A stretch of DNA of 64,000 bases from Candidatus Doudnabacteria bacterium (GCA_038203095.1 JBBREH010000002.1:5904-69903), one strand, 5' to 3'; counted from the stretch's first letter, positions 9,340 to 57,308 are shown. Numbers and translations are program-made. The notes: generated by a model from the letters alone, not told the origin.

Positions 9340-9408
9340 CCCATAATAAATCCCTCCCTCACCGGGGAGGGATTTTGATAATACGAATACTTCTGTTATT
9401 ATGAAATT

Positions 9409-28099: not shown

Positions 28100-29335
28100 A
28101 TGAAAACCTCCGATCTATTCGAAGAAAGTTACAGCGCTCTGACAGTCAACAAAGTCCGGACAACTTTAACTATGCTCGGAATTATTATTGGTATTGGGTC
28201 AGTTATTGCCATGGTGGCTATTGGACAAGGCGCGCAAGGGAGCATTGCCGCGCGAATTAATTCAATTGGCTCAAATTTAATTATAGTTACTCCCGGCGCC
28301 CAGCGAGGACCCGGAGTAACTATTAGTGCCGGCTTAGGATCTTCCCAAAGTCTGACAATAGCCGATGAATTAGCAATAAAAACTCAAGTTACCAACATTA
28401 CCGCAGTGGAACCGGAATTAAGTAAACGCTACCAAATTACGGCCAAGGGCACCAATACTAACACTAATGTCATAGGCACGGACAGCAGTTATCCCACGGT
28501 TAGAAATGTTTCAATGGATACAGGTTCCTTTATTAATGACCAACAAGTTACAGACGCAATGAAAGTTGCAGTAATTGGCCCCACGGTTCGCGATACCTTA
28601 TTTGGCATAGGCTCCGACGCCATCGGCCAAACCATCAAAATAAATTCCATGCAATTTAAAGTAGTTGGCGTTACAGCACCCAAAGGGGGCAGCGGCTTTG
28701 CCAACCAGGACAATATGGTTTTTATACCCATTTCTGTTTCAGCACGTTTTCTAGTCGGATCAAATGCCAAAGGAGAGCCTTATGTTAGCACCATTGCCAT
28801 ATCAGCAGATAACGCCGGCAATATGACCGCCGTACAAGACCAGGTTACCCAGCTTCTTATGGCGCGTCACAAGGTTGCCGATTCAGCTTCGGCAGATTTC
28901 ACTGTGCAAAACCAAGCAGATATTGTTTCCGCCGCTTCCGGCGTGGCCAGCACTTTTACAATATTACTGGCTTCGGTTGCGGCGATTTCGCTTTTGGTCG
29001 GCGGAATTGGGATTATGAATATGATGCTAACAACTGTAACAGAACGAACCAGAGAGATTGGCTTACGTAAAGCCATTGGCGCGACCCGGGCAGATATTAA
29101 TTTTCAATTTTTAACCGAAGCGATTATTTTAACTTTCACCGGCGGAATTTTAGGCATTATTTTTGGCTGGGGAACGTCATTGATTGCCAATAATTTTGGC
29201 ATTGCCAGCACAGTTACTGTGGCTTCAATAGTTTTAGCCTTTGGCGTTTCGGCCTTAATTGGCGTAGTCTTTGGCTATTACCCGGCACGGAGGGCTTCCA
29301 AGCTTAATCCGATTGAGGCATTACGGTATGAGTAA
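28100..29335 (+). CDS. ABC transporter permease, FtsX/MacB-type
   Basis: N-terminal TM, large periplasmic domain, C-terminal FtsX 3-TM bundle (LLVGGIGIMNMML...). Confidence 0.85.
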   Translation: MKTSDLFEESYSALTVNKVRTTLTMLGIIIGIGSVIAMVAIGQGAQGSIAARINSIGSNLIIVTPGAQRGPGVTISAGLGSSQSLTIADELAIKTQVTNITAVEPELSKRYQITAKGTNTNTNVIGTDSSYPTVRNVSMDTGSFINDQQVTDAMKVAVIGPTVRDTLFGIGSDAIGQTIKINSMQFKVVGVTAPKGGSGFANQDNMVFIPISVSARFLVGSNAKGEPYVSTIAISADNAGNMTAVQDQVTQLLMARHKVADSASADFTVQNQADIVSAASGVASTFTILLASVAAISLLVGGIGIMNMMLTTVTERTREIGLRKAIGATRADINFQFLTEAIILTFTGGILGIIFGWGTSLIANNFGIASTVTVASIVLAFGVSALIGVVFGYYPARRASKLNPIEALRYE

Positions 29336-29375
29336 CTCTACCGAATACGGAGAGGGCATACAGATATACGGACTG

Positions 29376-29540
29376 ATTAGACTTGTAGCGAATTAATTTT
29401 TTAAATCAAGATTTGATATTTTAGTCAAAATCCCAATTAAAAATTTTGATGTTTAACTTTAGTTAAGCGGAAAAATTATTAACAAGAGTTTGGTAAAAGA
29501 GCAATTTTTGGACAAAAATTAATTCACTACAAGGCTATTA
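29376..29540 (+). mobile_element. Family B MITE copy 1 (~165 bp, TIR ATTAGACTTGTAGCGAATTAATTTTTT)
   Basis: Shares the core AAAATTTTGATGTTTAAC(T/C)T(T/A)AGTTAAGCGGAAAAATT with copies at 53683..53843 and 49997..50158. Flanked on both sides by inverted GAATACGGAGAGG / CCTCTCCGTAT units. Confidence 0.7.
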
Positions 29541-29634
29541 GTGCTAAGCGGCCTCTCCGTATATCCGTACCGTTTCCGTATTCCGTAAAGTTAATAAAAA
29601 ACAATTAATCAACAGAATAATTAAATTAATCACC

Positions 29635-42609: not shown

Positions 42610-44325
42610 TTGATTTCTAACCATATGAATCAATCTCAAAAACCTGTAACCTTAATAATTCTTGACGGCTGGGGATACCGCGAGGGCAAGGAGCATAACG
42701 CCATTTTGGAGGCGCAAACGCCGTTTTTTGACCATTTGTGGCAAAACTATCCCCACACCTTGCTTAACGCCAGCGAACAGCACGTGGGCTTGCCGGGAGG
42801 CACTATTGGCAACAGCGAAGTTGGCCATATGACTATGGGTGCGGGGCGGGTGATAGATACCGATTTGGTCAGAATATCAAAAGCAATGGAGTCCGGCGAA
42901 TTTAACACCAACCCGGCTTTTGCCGCGCTTTTTGAACACGTAAAAAATAACCATTCAACTTTGCATGTAATGGGTTTGGTGAGTGATGGAGGGGTGCACA
43001 GCCACCGAGAACATTTGCACGGCTTTTTAACCGCGGCCAAAGAAGCGGGCATAGAAAAAGTTGCCATTCACGCTTTTACGGATGGGCGGGATGTGGCGCC
43101 GCAGAGCGGGGGGAAATATTTGCAGGATTTGGAAAAGGTTATTGCCAATTTGGGCATAGGCCACATTGCCACCGCCTCGGGCAGATATTTTGCCATGGAC
43201 CGCGATAAAAATTGGCATCGCACCAAACTTGTGGAAGACGCGATTTTTGAGGGTATAGGCAAAATGTCCCTTGCAAATAAACCGTCCGATGTTATTAAAG
43301 AGCTTTATAAAACAGGGGAGTTGGATGAGTTGCTTGAACCCCTAATTTTTTTGGACGACAAAGGCAAGGCTATGCCGGTCCAAAAAAATGACGGCATTTT
43401 CTTTTTTAATTTTAGAAGCGATAGACCTCGCCAGCTAACGCAAAAAATTGTCGAGCGCGCCAAAAAACATAACTTGTATTTCGTAACGCTAACGGAATAC
43501 GATCCCGCGCTTGAAAGCGTAGTGGCGTTCCCGCCAAATAAAATAGAGACTACTTTAGCCGCGGAAATTAGCCAAGCCGGCCTGACTCAGTCCCATATTG
43601 CCGAAACCGAAAAATACGCGCACGTAACTTACTTTTTTAACGGCGGCAAACAGGAACCGCATAAAAATGAACATCACTTTTTAATAGAAAGCCGGCGCGA
43701 CATAAAAACGCACGACGAAGCGCCGGAAATGCGCGCGAGAGAGATTGCCGATAAATCCATTGAACGGCTAAACGCCGGCGACGACTTTCTGGTAATTAAC
43801 TTTGCCAACGCCGATATGGTCGGACATACAGCTAATAAACCTGCAATTATTACTGCCGTAGAAACCGTGGACCGCGAGCTAAAGCGGGTTGTCGATGTTG
43901 TACTGGCCAAAGGCGGCATCGCCCTAATTACCGCCGACCACGGCAACGCCGAACTAAATTTTGATGCCTCAACCGGCCACAAACACACCGCGCACACACT
44001 GAACCAAGTCCCGTTTATAATTGCTGAAAAAAGTGGAAAGTGGGTAGTGAGTAGTGAAAAGTCGAAAACCATCAGCGTGCCCCCTCCTCTCCCTACCGAA
44101 GGTCCGACGAAGTCCGCCTTAGGCGGACGAAGTTGGATGGGAGAGGACGTCGCCTCAGCGACAGGTGAGGGTGCAGTTTTCCCCTCCCTTGATGGGAGGG
44201 GCGAGGGGAGGGTGACTCTCAACTCTTCAAGAAGCTTAGCCGATATTGCCCCGACTACCCTAGCCCTAATGCAAATAAAAAAACCGTCCGCAATGACGGG
44301 GGAGAGTTTGATTGTTTCTGATTAA
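42610..44325 (+). CDS. gpmI: 2,3-bisphosphoglycerate-independent phosphoglycerate mutase with ~60-aa in-frame GC-rich insertion near the C-terminus
   Basis: ILDGWG, GNSEVGHMT, ADHGN motifs. Insert ...EKSGKWVVSSEKSKTISVPPPLPTEGPTKSALGGRSWMGEDVASATGEGAVFPSLDGRGEGRVTLNSSRS precedes the conserved LADIAPT..L.L..I.KP..MTG.SLI C-terminus. Confidence 0.9.
   Translation: MISNHMNQSQKPVTLIILDGWGYREGKEHNAILEAQTPFFDHLWQNYPHTLLNASEQHVGLPGGTIGNSEVGHMTMGAGRVIDTDLVRISKAMESGEFNTNPAFAALFEHVKNNHSTLHVMGLVSDGGVHSHREHLHGFLTAAKEAGIEKVAIHAFTDGRDVAPQSGGKYLQDLEKVIANLGIGHIATASGRYFAMDRDKNWHRTKLVEDAIFEGIGKMSLANKPSDVIKELYKTGELDELLEPLIFLDDKGKAMPVQKNDGIFFFNFRSDRPRQLTQKIVERAKKHNLYFVTLTEYDPALESVVAFPPNKIETTLAAEISQAGLTQSHIAETEKYAHVTYFFNGGKQEPHKNEHHFLIESRRDIKTHDEAPEMRAREIADKSIERLNAGDDFLVINFANADMVGHTANKPAIITAVETVDRELKRVVDVVLAKGGIALITADHGNAELNFDASTGHKHTAHTLNQVPFIIAEKSGKWVVSSEKSKTISVPPPLPTEGPTKSALGGRSWMGEDVASATGEGAVFPSLDGRGEGRVTLNSSRSLADIAPTTLALMQIKKPSAMTGESLIVSD
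44075..44215. repeat. GC-rich palindromic (RPE-like) insertion inside gpmI. Contains a CCCCTCCC-loop-GGGAGGGG-C-N-AGGGGAGGGT module nearly identical to one inside fmt.
   Basis: Hairpins cctctccc/gggagagg, gtccgcc-tta-ggcggac, gtcgc-ctca-gcgac, cccctccc-ttgat-gggagggg. Compare 56849..56880. Confidence 0.65.
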
Positions 44326-44599
44326 CTACCCAAGCTGCCATTTCGACCACGAGTGCATCCGAGAGGGAGAAATCTATTATTTACAGATATCTCCTCGACT
44401 GCACTCGTAGAGATGTAAACAAAAAAGAAGCCACAAGCATATTGGCTTCCGAAATTTTAAATTGTTTACCGCGGAACCCAACAAATCTTTGTTAGTCGAC
44501 CGGTTGGTCAATTTCACTTAAGAATTGTTGTTGTTCCGCGGCCCAGATTTAACCTGGAAAATGATTCGCTGCTAGCTAAATTTTTACGTATAGCGCTGT

Positions 44600-44960
44600 G
44601 ATACGCAAACTTTTTTACTGGCAGGAATTGCCTAAGGCAGGCTACTGAAGCCTGTGAACCCCAAGATGTCCGGTCGTAAGACCGGTGCGGTCGCCTGCCC
44701 TACTGGGACAGGCAATACATCTGAGATTGCTGGTGGCGCTGGATCCCCGGCCAAGTCGCCGGGGAGGACAAGGTTTTTGGCCCAGTCTAAGGGCAACGGC
44801 CCCTCGGGCGGGCCCCTCCTAATTTTTGCCTCCGCTAGATCGGCGGCTGTTTTTTCTGTGAGGGTCACCAGCTGGCAACCTGCTGATTCCAGCGGCTTGC
44901 GCTGGTCCCAAGGACGCACAACCGTCCTTTCTTTTCTATTGGACATTTTACCTCCTGCAG
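44600..44960. other. ~360-nt GC-rich (roughly 60% GC), hairpin-dense intergenic island of unknown nature (structured ncRNA or cluster of GC-rich palindromic units)
   Basis: Long ORFs on both strands (44654..44977 +, 44632..45138 -) typical of GC-rich non-coding DNA. Hairpins with GNRA-like loops (ccggtc-gtaa-gaccgg), ccccggc-caagtc-gccgggg, ccagcg-gcttg-cgctgg. A perfect AGGAGGT-n5-ATG sits on the minus strand at 44947. Confidence 0.35.
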
Positions 44961-45199
44961 GCTTAGATTTGGAATAAATAGTAACATACATTGAATAAAA
45001 AAGAAATAGCAAAAGCCTCTTTTTTTTTATGCCAAAATTCCCTATAATACAACTACAAATGGGAACAGTAACATACCACAAATGACTACGAATCCTTTTT
45101 TGCGGAGTTGGGTGGTGGAATAATAAATTTGTAGTCATTTGTAGTCATTTGTAGTGTGTTAATAAATTTTGTAATTTTTTGTAGTGTAGTATTCGTAGT

Positions 45200-46951
45200 A
45201 TGGAAAGCTTAACCCTAAAAACCCTCAAAATCTACTGGCAACATAGCGCTAAATATAAGGGCTATGTTTTTGGCATTGTGGGACTGTTATTTTTGCACAT
45301 ATTGGGTGAAACATCGGGGCCATTTTTGTATAAGCAGTTTATAAATAATTTGGCGGCTTATGACTTTAGCCGTTACAATAAACTAATTGGCATTTTAATT
45401 TTAATTTTATTGGCGCGCAGTTTACGCACTTACGCTTTTAGAGCCAAAGACTTTGTCACCAACTTTTTTGAGCCACGCGTAATGGCCGACTTAAGCAACA
45501 CCTGCTTTAACTATATGCATCAAAACGGTTACTCGTTTTTTTCCGGCAGCTTTGTGGGCAGTTTGGTCAACAAAGTCAAAAAAATGGAACGTGGCTTTGA
45601 AATGGTCACAGATAGAATTGTAGATGACTTTTTGCGTAGCTTTCTTTCCATTGCTTTTGCCGTCAGCATTTTGTCCTTTACCCACTGGACGCTGTCTTTA
45701 GCCCTACTTATTTGGTGCGTAGTGTATATGGTTATTATTTACTATTTTTCCCTGTACAAATTAAAATACGATTTAAAAAAATCTGAACTCGATACCAAAA
45801 TTGTCGCCCAGCTGGCCGACACAATTACCAACAACACCAACATCAAACTTTTTGCCGGCCTTACCAAAGAACAGAAAGTTTTTGAGGGAATTACCGAGGA
45901 TCATTTTGCCATTAGAAGATTCTCCTGGAACCTGATGACGTATTTAGAATTGATTCAAGCTACTTTAATGTTGGCAATGGAAGGGTTAATGATGTATTTG
46001 GCCTTGCAATACTGGAAAGCCGGGCGCTTGAGCATTGGCGACTTTACGCTTATTCAGCTATATATGATAAATATTTTCGACAAGCTTTGGGGTATGGGCA
46101 AACAGGTCCGCTCCTTTTACGAAGCACTGGCCGATGCAAATGAAATGACGGAAATATTACTTACGCCGCACGAAGTAAACGACTCGCCAAACGCTAAGGC
46201 GCTAAAAGTAAGTGGCGGAAAAATAGAATTTAAAGCTGTAAATTTTGACTACCACACTAAAGCCAGCGTGCTAAAAAACTTTAATTTATCTATTGAACCC
46301 GGACAAAGAATGGCGCTAATCGGCCCCTCCGGTGGCGGAAAATCCACCATCATAAAATTGCTTTTACGCTTTCATGACATTCAGAATGGCGGAATATTTA
46401 TTGACGATCAAAACATTGCCCAAGTTACACAGGACTCTTTGCGCACGGCTTTAAGCCTGGTGCCACAAGATCCAATTTTATTTCACCGAACATTAATGGA
46501 GAACATCCGTTATGGAAAACCCAAGGCTACCGATAATGAGGTGATTGCAGCCGCTAAAGCCGCGCACGCGCACGAATTTATTACGCGCTCTCAGCATGGC
46601 TACAATACCTTTGTAGGGGAGCGGGGGATTAAGCTTAGCGGCGGAGAGCGTCAGCGCGTTGCCATTGCCAGAGCAATTCTAAAAAACGCGCCAATATTAA
46701 TTTTGGACGAAGCCACATCCAGCTTAGACAGTGAAAGTGAACAGTTAATCCAGCAAGCGCTCAAAAACCTAATGACAAATAAAACTGTCATAGTAATTGC
46801 CCACCGCCTCTCCACAATTATGCAAATGGACCAAATAATTGTTCTGGAAAACGGGAAAATAGTAGAGGAAGGCAAGCATAAAGAACTTCTAAAAATGAAA
46901 CAAGGCACCTACCAAAAATTGTGGCAAATTCAGGCCGGAGGTTTTGCGTAA
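45200..46951 (+). CDS. ABC transporter, fused permease/ATP-binding protein (MsbA-like exporter)
   Basis: 6-TM N-terminal domain; Walker A GPSGGGKST, signature LSGGERQRVAIAR, Walker B ILILDEATSSLD. Confidence 0.85.
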   Translation: MESLTLKTLKIYWQHSAKYKGYVFGIVGLLFLHILGETSGPFLYKQFINNLAAYDFSRYNKLIGILILILLARSLRTYAFRAKDFVTNFFEPRVMADLSNTCFNYMHQNGYSFFSGSFVGSLVNKVKKMERGFEMVTDRIVDDFLRSFLSIAFAVSILSFTHWTLSLALLIWCVVYMVIIYYFSLYKLKYDLKKSELDTKIVAQLADTITNNTNIKLFAGLTKEQKVFEGITEDHFAIRRFSWNLMTYLELIQATLMLAMEGLMMYLALQYWKAGRLSIGDFTLIQLYMINIFDKLWGMGKQVRSFYEALADANEMTEILLTPHEVNDSPNAKALKVSGGKIEFKAVNFDYHTKASVLKNFNLSIEPGQRMALIGPSGGGKSTIIKLLLRFHDIQNGGIFIDDQNIAQVTQDSLRTALSLVPQDPILFHRTLMENIRYGKPKATDNEVIAAAKAAHAHEFITRSQHGYNTFVGERGIKLSGGERQRVAIARAILKNAPILILDEATSSLDSESEQLIQQALKNLMTNKTVIVIAHRLSTIMQMDQIIVLENGKIVEEGKHKELLKMKQGTYQKLWQIQAGGFA

Positions 46952-53027: not shown

Positions 53028-53468
53028 ATGCAAAATTCACTTACCAAGATCCATCTTGAAACAAAAAAACAATTTGAAATTGTGGATTTGACCGGTCAAA
53101 TAATGAAAGCTGTGGTTGACTCAAAAATCCAAAATGGTTTAGTCCTTATTTTTTGCCCACACACAACGGCCGGAATTAGAATCAACCACAACGAACCTCT
53201 ACTAATGCAGGATTTTATGAAGGCTCTATACCGCTTGGTGCCAATAAACCAAAGCTACAGCCACGATTTATTTGAAGTCAGACAAAACGTCGCTCCTAAT
53301 GAGCGCAGCAACGGCCACGCGCATGTTAAATCGTTTTTACTTGGCTCATCCGAAACGCTTCCAATTGATAAAGGCAGTTTGCTTTTAGGCCAAAGGCAAA
53401 GCATTTTTTTTATTGAACTGGAGGGAGGCAGAATGCGCGAAGTTATTATTAAAATTATTGGCGAATAA
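53028..53468 (+). CDS. YjbQ/UPF0047 family protein (secondary thiamine-phosphate synthase-like)
   Basis: LVLIFCPHTTAGIRINHNE...NGHAHVKSFLLGSSETLPIDKGSLLLGQRQSIFFIELEG. Confidence 0.7.
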   Translation: MQNSLTKIHLETKKQFEIVDLTGQIMKAVVDSKIQNGLVLIFCPHTTAGIRINHNEPLLMQDFMKALYRLVPINQSYSHDLFEVRQNVAPNERSNGHAHVKSFLLGSSETLPIDKGSLLLGQRQSIFFIELEGGRMREVIIKIIGE

Positions 53469-56118: not shown

Positions 56119-57117
56119 TCAACGGTTTAGCGAAGAACCTATAAAATCCTTATACCCGTTTAAAAACTCTGTAATTGAAACCTCATTTTTACCAGCTAAC
56201 TGTAGCCGGTTGATTTTTAATTTGGTATTGTTGCCGCAGATAACAACACCATCAGCAATCACAGTTCCCGGGTCTAAATTTCTGTAGTTTTCTGTAGTGT
56301 CTCCATTCTGTAGTTCTGTAGTAATGCATTCTGTTATTTTTAAATTTTGTCCCTTCCAAGTTGTCCAAATTCCCGGCCAAATATAAAAGGCGCGGAACTG
56401 GTTATAAATTTCGGTTGCCGATTTATTCCAATCAACTTTCCCGTCCGCTTTACTAACAATCTTGCAGTAACTGACACTGTCTTCGTCCTGGGGCAGAGGA
56501 GTAATTTTACCCGAAACATAATCTGAAATTGTTTGATTGATTATGTTTGCCGACCTGCGCGCCAATTTATCGGAAAGTGTAAAAAAATTATCGTCCGGAT
56601 CAATGTTTACAATTTCCTGCGTCAGCAAAAGCCCGTCGTCCACATTTTTGTCCAAAAGAAAAATTGATGTCCCAGTCTGCTCATCGCCGTTAAGCAGCGC
56701 GGCCTGTATAGGCGAAGCGCCGCGGTATTTGGGCAACACGGAAAAATGGACGTTAATAGTTTTGTACTTTGGGGCGCTGATTATGTCCATAGGCAAAATT
56801 TTGCCATAAGCCACTACAACAAAAAGCTCAACACCGGCGGGTCCCATTCCCCTCCCGTCAGGGGAGGGGCTAGGGGAGGGTAAACAAAGATTTTTAAGTT
56901 GCCCCAAAAACTCCCGATTATCTTTTACATTTTCCGGTTTAAATGTCAAAAGGCCTAAATCCGCAGCCAATGCCGAAACCGGACTCTCCTCCATTTCCTG
57001 CCTGCGGCCAACCTTAACATCGGGCGTAGTAACCACGGCCGCAATTTCATGCTCCTTGCGCAAAGCCTCCAAAATGGGCAAGGCAACGTTTGATGTGCCA
57101 AAAAATACTAATTTCAT
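56119..57117 (-). CDS. fmt: Methionyl-tRNA formyltransferase with 18-aa in-frame GC-rich insertion (CLPSPSPSPDGRGMGPAG)
   Basis: MKLVFFGTS...AVVTTPD, HFSVLPKYRGASPIQ, C-terminal domain. The insert lies between ...QLKNL and VELFVVVAYGKILP. Confidence 0.85.
   Translation of the reverse strand: MKLVFFGTSNVALPILEALRKEHEIAAVVTTPDVKVGRRQEMEESPVSALAADLGLLTFKPENVKDNREFLGQLKNLCLPSPSPSPDGRGMGPAGVELFVVVAYGKILPMDIISAPKYKTINVHFSVLPKYRGASPIQAALLNGDEQTGTSIFLLDKNVDDGLLLTQEIVNIDPDDNFFTLSDKLARRSANIINQTISDYVSGKITPLPQDEDSVSYCKIVSKADGKVDWNKSATEIYNQFRAFYIWPGIWTTWKGQNLKITECITTELQNGDTTENYRNLDPGTVIADGVVICGNNTKLKINRLQLAGKNEVSITEFLNGYKDFIGSSLNR
56849..56880. repeat. GC-rich palindromic module CCCCTCCC-gtca-GGGGAGGGG-CT-AGGGGAGGG inside fmt (same module as in gpmI at 44178-44213)
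   Basis: Near-identical 35-40 nt between the two genes. Confidence 0.65.
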
Positions 57118-57308
57118 CTACAAAAAATCTTACAAATCTACAAATGACTACAAATCTCTGTAACCATATTAATACAATTATACTGTTTCTATAGCAGGTT
57201 GACAAAACTCTCTCTCTGATATTTTTAGGAGTCGCCCGGCGCCAGTTATATACGGACGATTTTTCGTCATTGGGACGAAAAAGCAACTGGCAAACAGAAG
57301 GGGGCTAA

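What the first reader, a model, noticed from the sequence alone, without database searches (positions are those of the whole stretch)
44600..44960. Unclassified ~360-nt GC-rich structured island between gpmI and the MsbA-like ABC exporter
GC content jumps to roughly 60% for ~360 nt, and both strands carry long ORFs with random-looking P/A/G/R-rich translations, the usual signature of a structured RNA gene or a GC-rich repeat cluster.
- Hairpins include ccggtc-GTAA-gaccgg (GNRA-like loop), ccccggc-caagtc-gccgggg, ccagcg-gcttg-cgctgg, ggacg-cacaac-cgtcc and caggc-tactgaa-gcctg.
- Upstream at 44463-44538 a separate 14-bp long-range helix (ccgcggaac..caacaa / ttgttgttccgcgg) encloses ~45 nt.
- At 44340-44410 a 16-bp imperfect hairpin follows the gpmI stop.
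The hallmark motifs of RNase P RNA (GGAAAGUCCGGGC / ACAGAANCCGGCUUA), tmRNA (tRNA-like 3' end) and SRP RNA (GGAAGGAAGCAGC) were looked for and not found. One weak resemblance, ACAGAAAAAACAGCCGCCGAU versus the RNase P P9-P10 region, was noted on the minus strand.

The minus strand also has a textbook AGGAGGT-n5-ATG followed by a 105-codon ORF, so a small GC-rich foreign gene cannot be excluded.
Basis: partly seen in the sequence, partly recalled or inferred. Interest (0 to 1): 0.6.

Follow-up and report, generated by a model that had tools for sequence, protein, structure and literature searches.

The report
Small orphan gene, not an RNA
The GC-rich "island" is most likely a small, lineage-restricted protein-coding gene on the minus strand of a candidate-phyla-radiation bacterium. 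Its conserved 44-codon core is followed by an unconserved run of GC-rich hairpins that happens to stay in frame, so it is an ordinary orphan gene rather than a new structured RNA.

Summary
**Observation: confirmed.** 44632-44946 has 59% GC against 40.5% for the window. It carries long ORFs on both strands, and all the listed hairpins are present.

**Structured-RNA reading: fails its own test.**
- Rfam gives nothing, and the island is not repeated in the window.
- A relative with 63-68% identical gpmI (L003/L082) has, in the same slot and orientation, a 49-aa ORF that aligns with codons 19-62 of the minus-strand ORF.
- Over the 34 ungapped codons the two are 56% identical in protein and only 55% identical in DNA. 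Fourteen of the 19 identical residues use different codons.
- Differences by codon position are 12/10/24. pN/pS is 0.36 in this frame, against 0.54 or more in every other frame.
- The conserved core has no excess folding (z -0.75).
The tail folds with z -4.9.

**Status of the protein.** It is an orphan: its only match among 1.84 billion representative proteins is itself. It matches nothing in Pfam, NCBIfam, PHROGs, PADLOC or the PDB.

**Conclusion.** This is a small gene of unknown function in a variable gpmI-ABC slot, followed by strong hairpins and a terminator. Interest is low.

**Side finding.** A GC-rich palindromic element is inserted in frame in both gpmI and fmt.

The parts
44632..44946 (-). 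Small ORF of 104 codons plus stop (P0001). NCBI annotates the 168-aa version that starts at 45138.
   Evidence: One search lists the ORF and one search gives its translation. It was called as a gene in the Logan assembly. The GC-rich stretch ends exactly at its start and stop.
44950..44956 (-). Shine-Dalgarno-like AGGAGGT, 3 nt upstream of the ATG at 44946-44944.
   Evidence: Read from the sequence. Only 6 of 46 long genes in the window have even a 4-mer SD-like match.
44761..44892 (-). Conserved coding core, codons 19-62 (LESAGCQLVTLTEKTAADLAEAKIRRGPPEGPLPLDWAKNLVLP). It is homologous to the 49-aa ORF at L003:3449-3598 (minus strand).
   Evidence: tblastn gives E 6e-6 against all loci and 4e-8 for L003A against the whole window, with the only hit at the syntenic site. 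The codon test is, the in-frame 6-nt indel and pN/pS by frame. Fold z is -0.75 on minus and +0.15 on plus.
44638..44764 (-). Array of four short GC-rich hairpins that is read through as the unconserved 42-residue P/A/G/L-rich C-terminal tail. The stop codon is at 44632-44634.
   Evidence: Hairpins are. Fold z is -4.9 on minus and -3.1 on plus. L003 has no counterpart, and its ORF stops 3 codons after LVPP.
44893..44946 (-). Unconserved N-terminal extension (codons 1-18) holding two hairpins: ggacg/cgtcc and ccagcg/cgctgg. On the plus strand the first looks like a terminator.
   Evidence: fold z -2.8.
44468..44542 (-). 75-nt imperfect long hairpin in the 3' region of the small ORF.
   Evidence: Fold z is -7.0 on minus and -4.6 on plus. 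No Rfam family matches. The covariance model of the analogous L003/L048 element does not hit it.
44417..44450 (-). Intrinsic-terminator-like site on the minus strand: GGAAGCCA-(9-nt loop)-UGGCUUC followed by UUUUUUGUUU.
   Evidence: Read from the sequence and the fold. The scan missed it because its loop limit is 8.
44349..44408 (.). 60-nt hairpin with 15-nt arms (87% complementary), just after the gpmI stop at 44325.
   Evidence: pair I3. Fold z is -5.8 on plus and -6.4 on minus for 44335-44450.
42610..44325 (+). gpmI, the convergent upstream neighbour. It carries an in-frame GC-rich insertion at about 44060-44220.
   Evidence: Relatives of 509-511 aa lack about 53 of its residues.
45200..46951 (+). 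MsbA-like ABC exporter, transcribed divergently from the small ORF.
   Evidence: below every equivalog cut-off, so a generic type-1 exporter.

Best explanation
The island is a small protein-coding gene on the minus strand (44946 to 44632). It is translated from AGGAGGT-AAA-ATG.

**What is functional.** The part under selection is a core of about 44 residues with the pattern L-[ST]-E-x-T-A-x-x-L-x(5)-R-R-G-P-P-x-G-x-x-P-x-D-W-A-K-x-L-V-x-P. It is shared with a 49-aa ORF in the same gpmI/ABC-exporter slot of a related CPR lineage.

**What is not.** In this genome the reading frame runs on through four unconserved GC-rich hairpins, which adds a 42-residue tail. Transcription then probably passes a 75-nt hairpin and ends at a hairpin plus U-run at 44450-44417.

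**Why it is GC-rich.** The high GC comes from a P/A/G/R-rich composition (39% of residues; GC1 0.64, GC2 0.52) together with a raised GC3 (0.62).

**What is shown and what is inferred.**
- Shown: the ORF, the ribosome-binding site, syntenic protein-level conservation with synonymous changes, and the lack of excess structure in the conserved part.
- Inferred: that it is transcribed and translated, and where transcription ends.
- Unknown: the biochemical role. My best guess is a small accessory protein that works through its helix-loop-helix-like core by binding a partner, possibly connected with the neighbouring exporter. That guess has low confidence, about 0.15.
For: **Homology and synteny**
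- The syntenic homologue in L003/L082 (gpmI - minus-strand small ORF - ABC exporter) was found only at the protein level.
- blastn with word size 7 finds at most a 21-nt match.

**Coding signature (34 ungapped codons)**
- 19 residues are identical, and 14 of them use synonymous codons.
- Differences by codon position are 12/10/24.
- DNA identity is 55%.
- Nei-Gojobori gives pS 0.85 and pN 0.31 in the ORF frame.
- The antisense frame that shares third positions gives 0.68 and 0.37.
- The other four frames have pN above pS and contain stop codons.
- tblastx scores 46.9 bits in the ORF frame and 35.9 in the antisense frame.
- The only indel in the 44-codon alignment is 6 nt long.

**Gene boundaries and signals**
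- The GC-rich stretch ends exactly at the ATG and the stop.
- A strong SD precedes the ATG.
- A hairpin plus U-run lies downstream on the same strand.

**Operon context in the relative**
- In L003 the homologue is followed by a second small ORF (B) with its own GGAGG.
- B is conserved in L048: 48.5% over 68 aa, E 4e-15, differences 23/22/38.
- A conserved stem-loop plus U-run follows B.
- This looks like a minus-strand mini-operon.

**Structure is absent where conservation is present**
- The conserved core has no excess folding (z -0.75 and +0.15).
- The structure signal sits in the unconserved tail (z -4.9).
- No Rfam family matches.
Against: - It is an orphan. Its only match is itself among 5.8 billion clustered and 1.84 billion representative proteins.
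- JGI metagenome contigs, viral contigs, phages and plasmids give no match.
- Pfam, NCBIfam, PHROGs, PADLOC and the PDB give no match.
- Only two lineages carry it, so the selection test rests on a single pair and 34-44 codons.
- The third-position test cannot by itself separate the ORF frame from its antisense partner.
- AlphaFold2 without an alignment gives no fold (pLDDT 56, pTM 0.14).
- Composition lies 3-4 sd from the host's genes at all three codon positions.
- This genome rarely uses SD sites (6 of 46).
- 60 of the 104 codons are not conserved.
- There are no expression data.
Confidence: 0.7

Rival explanations
1. It is a novel structured non-coding RNA gene on either strand, and the ORFs are by-products of high GC.
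For: - GC is far above the genome mean. Both strands are open, and five or more local GC-rich hairpins are present.
- Fold z is -3.1 and -4.2 against shuffles.
- On the plus strand, two terminator-like hairpins with T-runs lie at 44832-44846 and 44910-44929.
- GC3 of 0.62 is not explained by the host's AT bias.
Against: - No Rfam match reaches significance, even at E up to 10.
- Fold z is not an outlier for this genome, whose 5th percentile is -4.2.
- The only block conserved in the relative has z of about 0. It differs mainly at third codon positions and shows pN well below pS in one frame.
- None of the named hairpins is conserved in L003.
- The consensus fold of the two homologues is weak, at -16 kcal/mol. 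Its one shared helix pairs the Gly-Pro codons with the Trp-Ala codons.
Confidence: 0.08
2. It is a decaying remnant of foreign or formerly coding GC-rich DNA in a variable slot. The conserved block would be a relic of a gene that was functional in a donor or ancestor, and the present 104-codon ORF would not be expressed as a functional protein.
For: - The gpmI-ABC slot holds different content in each relative:
  - L002 has a 254-aa AT-rich ORF.
  - L004 has other genes.
  - L005 has an unrelated GC-rich orphan of 105 aa.
  - L048 has module B only.
- ORF lengths and ends differ between the window and L003.
- Composition is atypical.
- There are no homologues elsewhere.
Against: - At 63-68% gpmI identity, neutral DNA should be unalignable, and the flanking intergenic DNA is.
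- Retention of 56% amino-acid identity with saturated synonymous sites therefore implies purifying selection along at least much of the two lineages.
- The ORF is intact in both, and this one has a start codon behind a strong SD.
- No donor was found.
Confidence: 0.14
3. It is a cluster of GC-rich palindromic repeat units (REP/BIME-like), and the ORF is incidental.
For: - This genome has a GC-rich palindromic element family (CCCTCCC-N-GGGAGGG) with three copies in the window, two of them inside genes.
- The tail of the ORF is four tandem short palindromes with strong folding.
Against: - None of the island's hairpins recurs in the 64-kb window or in the 82 fetched loci.
- The four hairpins share no sequence with one another.
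- This cannot explain the protein-level conservation of the core.
- It may still be true of the tail alone. In that case it complements the best explanation rather than competing with it.
Confidence: 0.08

Closest known systems
Lineage-specific small orphan genes ('hypothetical proteins') of CPR/Patescibacteria genomes
   Same: It is a short ORF with a start codon, a ribosome-binding site and a terminator. It has no family assignment and is restricted to a few related lineages. It sits in a variable slot between conserved housekeeping genes, and gene callers already call it.
   Different: It is unusually GC-rich for its host (0.59 against 0.405). More than half of the ORF is unconserved, hairpin-forming sequence.
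Structured non-coding RNA genes that appear as GC-rich islands in AT-rich genomes (RNase P RNA, tmRNA, SRP, 6S, and large ncRNAs such as OLE, HEARO, GOLLD, ROOL and raiA)
   Same: It has a GC step of a few hundred nt, open frames on both strands, and many local hairpins.
   Different: No covariance model matches. The conserved part shows codon-periodic change and no excess structure.
Rickettsia palindromic elements (RPE): palindromic selfish DNA inserted in frame into protein-coding genes. This comparison rests on my own knowledge (Ogata et al. 2000).
   Same: Palindromic GC-rich sequence is translated as part of a protein. This holds for the tail of this ORF and, more clearly, for the shared 35-nt element inside gpmI and fmt.
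   Different: The hairpins in this ORF are not repeated copies of one element as far as the window shows. They lie at the 3' end rather than inside a conserved protein. The elements are also far shorter than RPEs.
Helix-hairpin-helix / ComEA-type DNA-binding motif. The resemblance (h-x-x-G-h-S/T-x-x-T-A-x-x-h ... R-x-x-G-P) is recalled from memory and is only a lead.
   Same: The spacing of small and hydrophobic residues in LSEQTARELVAVRNRRGP is loosely similar.
   Different: No Pfam HhH model matches, even at E up to 10. No PDB sequence matches. The protein is not basic (pI 6.2).

Membership tests
Known RNA families (Rfam 15, including RNase P, tmRNA, SRP, 6S, riboswitches and large ncRNAs) | A covariance-model score at or above the family's gathering threshold | tested here: not met
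   One search finds only four tRNAs in the whole window. In one search the best match over 44000-45300 is 26.6 bits against a threshold of 55 (Phe_leader, lying outside the GC-rich part). There are no RNase P, tmRNA or SRP hits. ARAGORN finds no tmRNA.
Structured RNA in general | Folding energy clearly beyond the genomic background, and structure conserved with covariation in homologues | tested here: not met
   Fold z of -3.1 and -4.2 lies within the lower 5-8% of control windows. The conserved core has z of -0.75 and +0.15. The named hairpins are absent from L003, and the consensus fold is weak. Only two sequences were available, so power is low.
Protein-coding gene | An open frame with a start codon and a ribosome-binding site | tested here: met
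   AGGAGGT-AAA-ATG followed by 104 codons.
Protein-coding gene | Conservation at the amino-acid level with synonymous, third-position changes, and pN below pS in one frame only | tested here: met
   56% amino-acid against 55% nucleotide identity, with 14 synonymous codons among 19 identical residues. Differences by codon position are 12/10/24. pN/pS is 0.36 in the ORF frame, 0.54 in the antisense frame and above 1 in the other four. This rests on one pair of sequences only.
Protein-coding gene | Evidence of transcription and translation | not testable with these tools
   No RNA-seq, Ribo-seq or proteome data are available here.
Any described protein family (Pfam, NCBIfam, PHROGs, PADLOC, PDB sequences) | A profile match at or near the curated threshold | tested here: not met
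   Searches give no match below E 0.01. Exhaustive phmmer returns only the query itself.
Repeat cluster (REP/BIME/MITE-like) | The same units present at other places in the genome | tested here: inconclusive
   There is no second copy of any island segment in the 64-kb window or in the related loci. The rest of the genome could not be searched.
Diversity-generating retroelement target (VR/TR pair) | A near-identical template repeat nearby, and a reverse transcriptase | tested here: not met
   There is no repeat of the island anywhere in the window.
Intrinsic terminator (for 44417-44450, minus strand) | A GC-containing stem-loop directly followed by a U-run | tested here: met
   The sequence is GGAAGCCA-loop 9-UGGCUUC-UUUUUUGUUU. 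The consensus scan missed it because its loop limit is 8. Function was not tested.
Helix-hairpin-helix (ComEA-like) motif | A match to an HhH profile | tested here: not met
   hmmscan at E up to 10 gives no HhH family. A profile search of the PDB gives no hit at E up to 10.
RPE-like in-frame palindromic insertion (side finding in gpmI and fmt) | The same palindromic element at several loci, lying in frame inside conserved genes as an insertion relative to orthologues | tested here: met
   - CCCTCCC-N(4-6)-GGGAGGG occurs three times against 0 expected.
- 44179-44213 and 56847-56881 are 88.6% identical.
- The two copies translate as FPSLDGRGEG and SPSPDGRGMG.
- The fmt insertion is a gap in the alignment to PDB 4iqf.
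- gpmI is about 53 residues longer than its relatives at that point.

The most novel reading that the evidence does not exclude
The locus records 'hairpin capture'. GC-rich palindromic DNA accumulated behind a conserved gene of about 45 codons and, after loss of the old stop codon, is now translated as a 42-residue tail. This would be the same process that placed a palindromic element in frame into gpmI and fmt of this genome. If so, it is an RPE-like system of translated selfish palindromes in a CPR bacterium. A variant of this reading is that the hairpin array plus the long 3' hairpins form a functional RNA domain of a dual-function mRNA.
Probability: 0.15. Interest if true: 0.5.

Novelty: new member of a known kind. 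Interest (0 to 1): 0.2.

Why it matters
The main value is negative. A GC-rich, hairpin-dense island with open frames on both strands in an AT-rich CPR genome looks like a new RNA gene, but it turns out to be a small orphan protein gene. The test that decides this is syntenic, protein-only conservation with synonymous changes, combined with the absence of excess structure in the conserved part.

Small orphan proteins are abundant and unstudied in CPR bacteria. This one now has a defined 44-residue core motif and a second family member.

The side observation may be of more general interest for how reduced genomes tolerate selfish DNA. GC-rich palindromes sit in frame in two housekeeping genes, and hairpin sequence is read through as a protein tail.

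Tried and rejected
- **Rfam.** Searches at gathering and at E up to 10 found nothing relevant.
- **tmRNA and tRNA.** ARAGORN found only four tRNAs, all elsewhere in the window.
- **Repeats within the window.** None were found for the island.
- **More homologues.** Two word-indexed searches found only the ORF itself and the frameshifted L003-lineage copy P0002.
  - The exhaustive phmmer search found only the query.
  - The JGI metagenome scan with peptide patterns found nothing.
  - The degenerate DNA pattern for RRGPPxGxxPxDWAK found nothing in metagenome or viral contigs.
  - tblastn against phages and plasmids found nothing.
- **Family and defence libraries and the PDB.** Nothing was found.
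- **AlphaFold2 on the single sequence.** The result was uninformative, with pLDDT 56.
- **Homology with the GC-rich island of L005.** Not detectable; that ORF is another orphan.
- **Homology of the window's 75-nt hairpin with the L003/L048 stem-loop.** A visual resemblance (GUGAAAU...GACCAAC) was not borne out by relaxed blastn. A covariance model built from L003 and L048 did not hit the window either.
- **HhH/ComEA resemblance.** No statistical support.
- **The 168-aa reading used by NCBI.** Rejected in favour of the 104-aa start. The extra 64 codons lie in 30% GC promoter-like DNA with TTTGTAGT repeats, and the SD and the GC boundary both sit at 44946.
- **Literature.** A search for in-frame palindromic elements in CPR bacteria returned nothing relevant.
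- **NCBI record.** The look-up failed.

Full report
**Setting**

The window comes from a CPR/Patescibacteria genome. Its gpmI is 61-71% identical to those of Doudnabacteria-type MAGs, and mean GC is 40.5%. The finding lies between two genes:
- gpmI (42610-44325, plus strand; TIGR01307);
- an MsbA-like ABC exporter (45200-46951, plus strand).

GC rises to 0.58-0.60 over 44600-44900. The two 300-nt windows starting at 44601 and 44651 are the GC-richest in the 64 kb. The step coincides with an ORF: 44632-44946 has 0.594 GC, against 0.418 and 0.304 on its two sides.

Both strands are open. The plus-strand ORF shares third codon positions with the minus-strand ORF, which is the usual "shadow" frame of a GC-rich gene. 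All the listed hairpins exist.

The island folds better than dinucleotide shuffles (z -3.1 and -4.2). Eighty control windows of the same genome give a mean of -0.9, an sd of 1.8 and a 5th percentile of -4.2. The excess is real but not exceptional for this genome.

**It matches no known RNA and is not repeated**

Rfam finds only four tRNAs in the window. Within 44000-45300 nothing comes near a gathering score, and ARAGORN finds no tmRNA. No part of the island recurs in the window.

**The decisive evidence is comparative**

Of 80 gpmI loci fetched from GTDB species genomes, L002, L004 and L005 keep the gpmI-ABC exporter neighbourhood. So does the L003 lineage, as shown by the longer contig L082.

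In L003/L082 the slot holds a GC-rich stretch of about 450 nt with two minus-strand ORFs, A (49 aa) and B (68 aa). tblastn aligns residues 29-62 of the window ORF with A at 56% identity. E is 6e-6 against all loci. In the reverse search, A against the whole window, E is 4e-8 and the only hit is at the syntenic site.

At the DNA level the two are essentially unalignable: 55% identity in the block, and blastn finds at most 21 nt.

The coding signature in the block is as follows:
- Of the 19 identical residues, 14 are encoded by different codons. For example, RRGPP is AGG AGG GGC CCG CCC in the window and CGT CGC GGT CCG CCG in L003.
- Differences by codon position are 12/10/24.
- A nucleotide alignment extends the match colinearly to codons 19-62 of the window and 1-47 of A, with a single 6-nt indel.
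- Nei-Gojobori counts by frame:

| Frame | pS | pN | pN/pS |
|---|---|---|---|
| Minus ORF frame | 0.85 | 0.31 | 0.36 |
| Antisense frame sharing third positions | 0.68 | 0.37 | 0.54 |
| Other four frames | 0.32-0.39 | 0.45-0.49 | above 1 (all contain stops) |

**Structure and conservation are anticorrelated along the ORF**

| Segment | Coordinates | Fold z (minus / plus) |
|---|---|---|
| Conserved core | 44761-44892 | -0.75 / +0.15 |
| Unconserved C-terminal tail | 44625-44765 | -4.9 / -3.1 |
| Unconserved N-terminal part | 44885-44960 | -2.8 (minus only) |

The "RNase P-like" string is codons 30-36 of the core.

The consensus fold of the two homologues is weak, at -16 kcal/mol. Its one shared helix pairs the Gly-Pro codons (GGYCCG) with the Trp-Ala codons (UGGGCC).

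In L003 the ORF stops three codons after the core. In the window it reads on for 42 codons through four tandem GC-rich palindromes. At this GC content, 42 open codons are not improbable (my estimate is about 0.3). The tail therefore need not be functional protein.

**Gene signals**

- The ATG at 44946 follows AGGAGGT-AAA. This stands out because only 6 of 46 long genes in the window have even a 4-mer SD-like match.
- Downstream on the minus strand come:
  - a small hairpin;
  - a 75-nt hairpin at 44542-44468 (z -7.0);
  - a hairpin plus UUUUUUGUUU at 44450-44417;
  - a 60-nt hairpin next to the gpmI stop.

In the L003 lineage, A is followed by B, which has its own GGAGG. B is conserved in L048: 48.5% over 68 aa, with differences of 23/22/38 by codon position. 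A branched stem-loop plus U-run follows B. It has 33 pairs, of which 2 change by compensation, 4 are compatible one-sided changes, and none is broken. So these islands behave as small minus-strand gene cassettes with structured terminators.

A covariance model of that stem-loop does not hit the window. The window's hairpins are therefore analogous to it but not demonstrably homologous.

**What the protein is remains unknown**

- Its only match is itself among 5.8 billion clustered and 1.84 billion representative proteins.
- Nothing turned up in metagenome or viral contigs, phages or plasmids.
- No family or PDB match was found.
- AlphaFold2 without an alignment gives no fold.
- The protein is P/A/G/R-rich (39%) with pI 6.2.

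That composition explains GC1 and GC2 (0.64 and 0.52, against 0.465 and 0.35 for host genes). GC3 (0.62 against 0.41) is also raised. In L003 and L048 the homologous cassettes have host-like GC3.

The raised GC3 is the one feature left unexplained. It could reflect recent acquisition, the palindromic sequence in the tails, or selection on nucleic-acid structure.

The slot itself is variable:
- L002 has an unrelated 254-aa ORF.
- L004 has other genes.
- L005 has a different GC-rich orphan of 105 aa with a 16-bp terminator hairpin.
- L048 has B only.

**Verdict**

| Reading | Probability |
|---|---|
| Small, lineage-restricted protein-coding gene with an unconserved hairpin-derived tail | 0.7 |
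| Novel RNA | 0.08 |
| Decaying relic | 0.14 |
| Pure repeat cluster | 0.08 |

NCBI already annotates a 168-aa version as a protein. The 104-aa start fits the SD and the GC boundary better.

Interest is low. The most notable by-product is that this genome carries a short GC-rich palindrome, CCCTCCC-N(4-6)-GGGAGGG. It has three copies against 0 expected, and it is inserted in frame in both gpmI and fmt. That echoes the Rickettsia palindromic elements and may be the same process that produced the translated hairpin tail here.

Noticed in passing
window 44060-44220 (inside gpmI), 56847-56881 (inside fmt, minus strand), 9352-9371 (intergenic); also L082:4836-4857: A short GC-rich palindromic element, CCCTCCC-N(4-6)-GGGAGGG, occurs three times in the window against 0 expected.
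- Two copies are 88.6% identical over 35 nt. They lie in frame inside housekeeping genes and translate as FPSLDGRGEG (gpmI) and SPSPDGRGMG (fmt).
- The fmt copy is an insertion relative to PDB 4iqf.
- gpmI carries about 53 extra, GC-rich, hairpin-forming codons relative to relatives of 509-511 aa.

This resembles the in-frame Rickettsia palindromic elements.
   Followed up: partly
window 45052-45199 and 57119-57156: The motif (C/A)ATTTGTAGT is repeated in tandem and inverted. It lies directly upstream of the ATG of the ABC exporter (45200) and of fmt (57117, minus strand). There are 16 matches with at most 1 mismatch, against 4.9 +/- 2.2 in shuffles. It may be a shared operator or 5'-leader element. 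The L082 intergenic region lacks it.
   Followed up: partly
window 29333-29593: A nested inverted repeat of about 260 nt in 31% GC intergenic DNA after the gene ending at 29335. It has three arm pairs of 14-24 nt, 83-93% complementary. It is the most stably folding stretch sampled (z -9.7). A window starting at 53300 on the minus strand has z -5.1.
   Followed up: partly
L003:3112-3226 (minus), L048:7585-7698 (minus), L082:5374-5488: A conserved branched stem-loop of 33 base pairs followed by a U-run lies downstream of small ORF B. It is more conserved (about 86-92% nt) than the ORF itself. Every substitution in a stem keeps the pairing, and two are compensatory. Fold z is -6 to -7. It looks like an elaborate terminator or 3'-UTR element. 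No Rfam search was run on it.
   Followed up: partly
L005:7550-7940: A second, unrelated GC-rich island (0.56-0.67 GC in a 0.43 locus) sits in the same gpmI-ABC slot. It has a minus-strand orphan ORF of 105 aa behind GGAGG, followed by a 16-bp hairpin. Its only database match is itself.
   Followed up: partly
whole window (46 long ORFs): Only 6 of 46 long genes have an SD-like 4-mer within 20 nt of the start; most starts are preceded by A/T-rich sequence. By contrast, four of the five small GC-rich ORFs in the gpmI slot have a strong GGAGG: the window ORF, L003 B, L048 B and the L005 ORF, but not L003 A.
   Followed up: no
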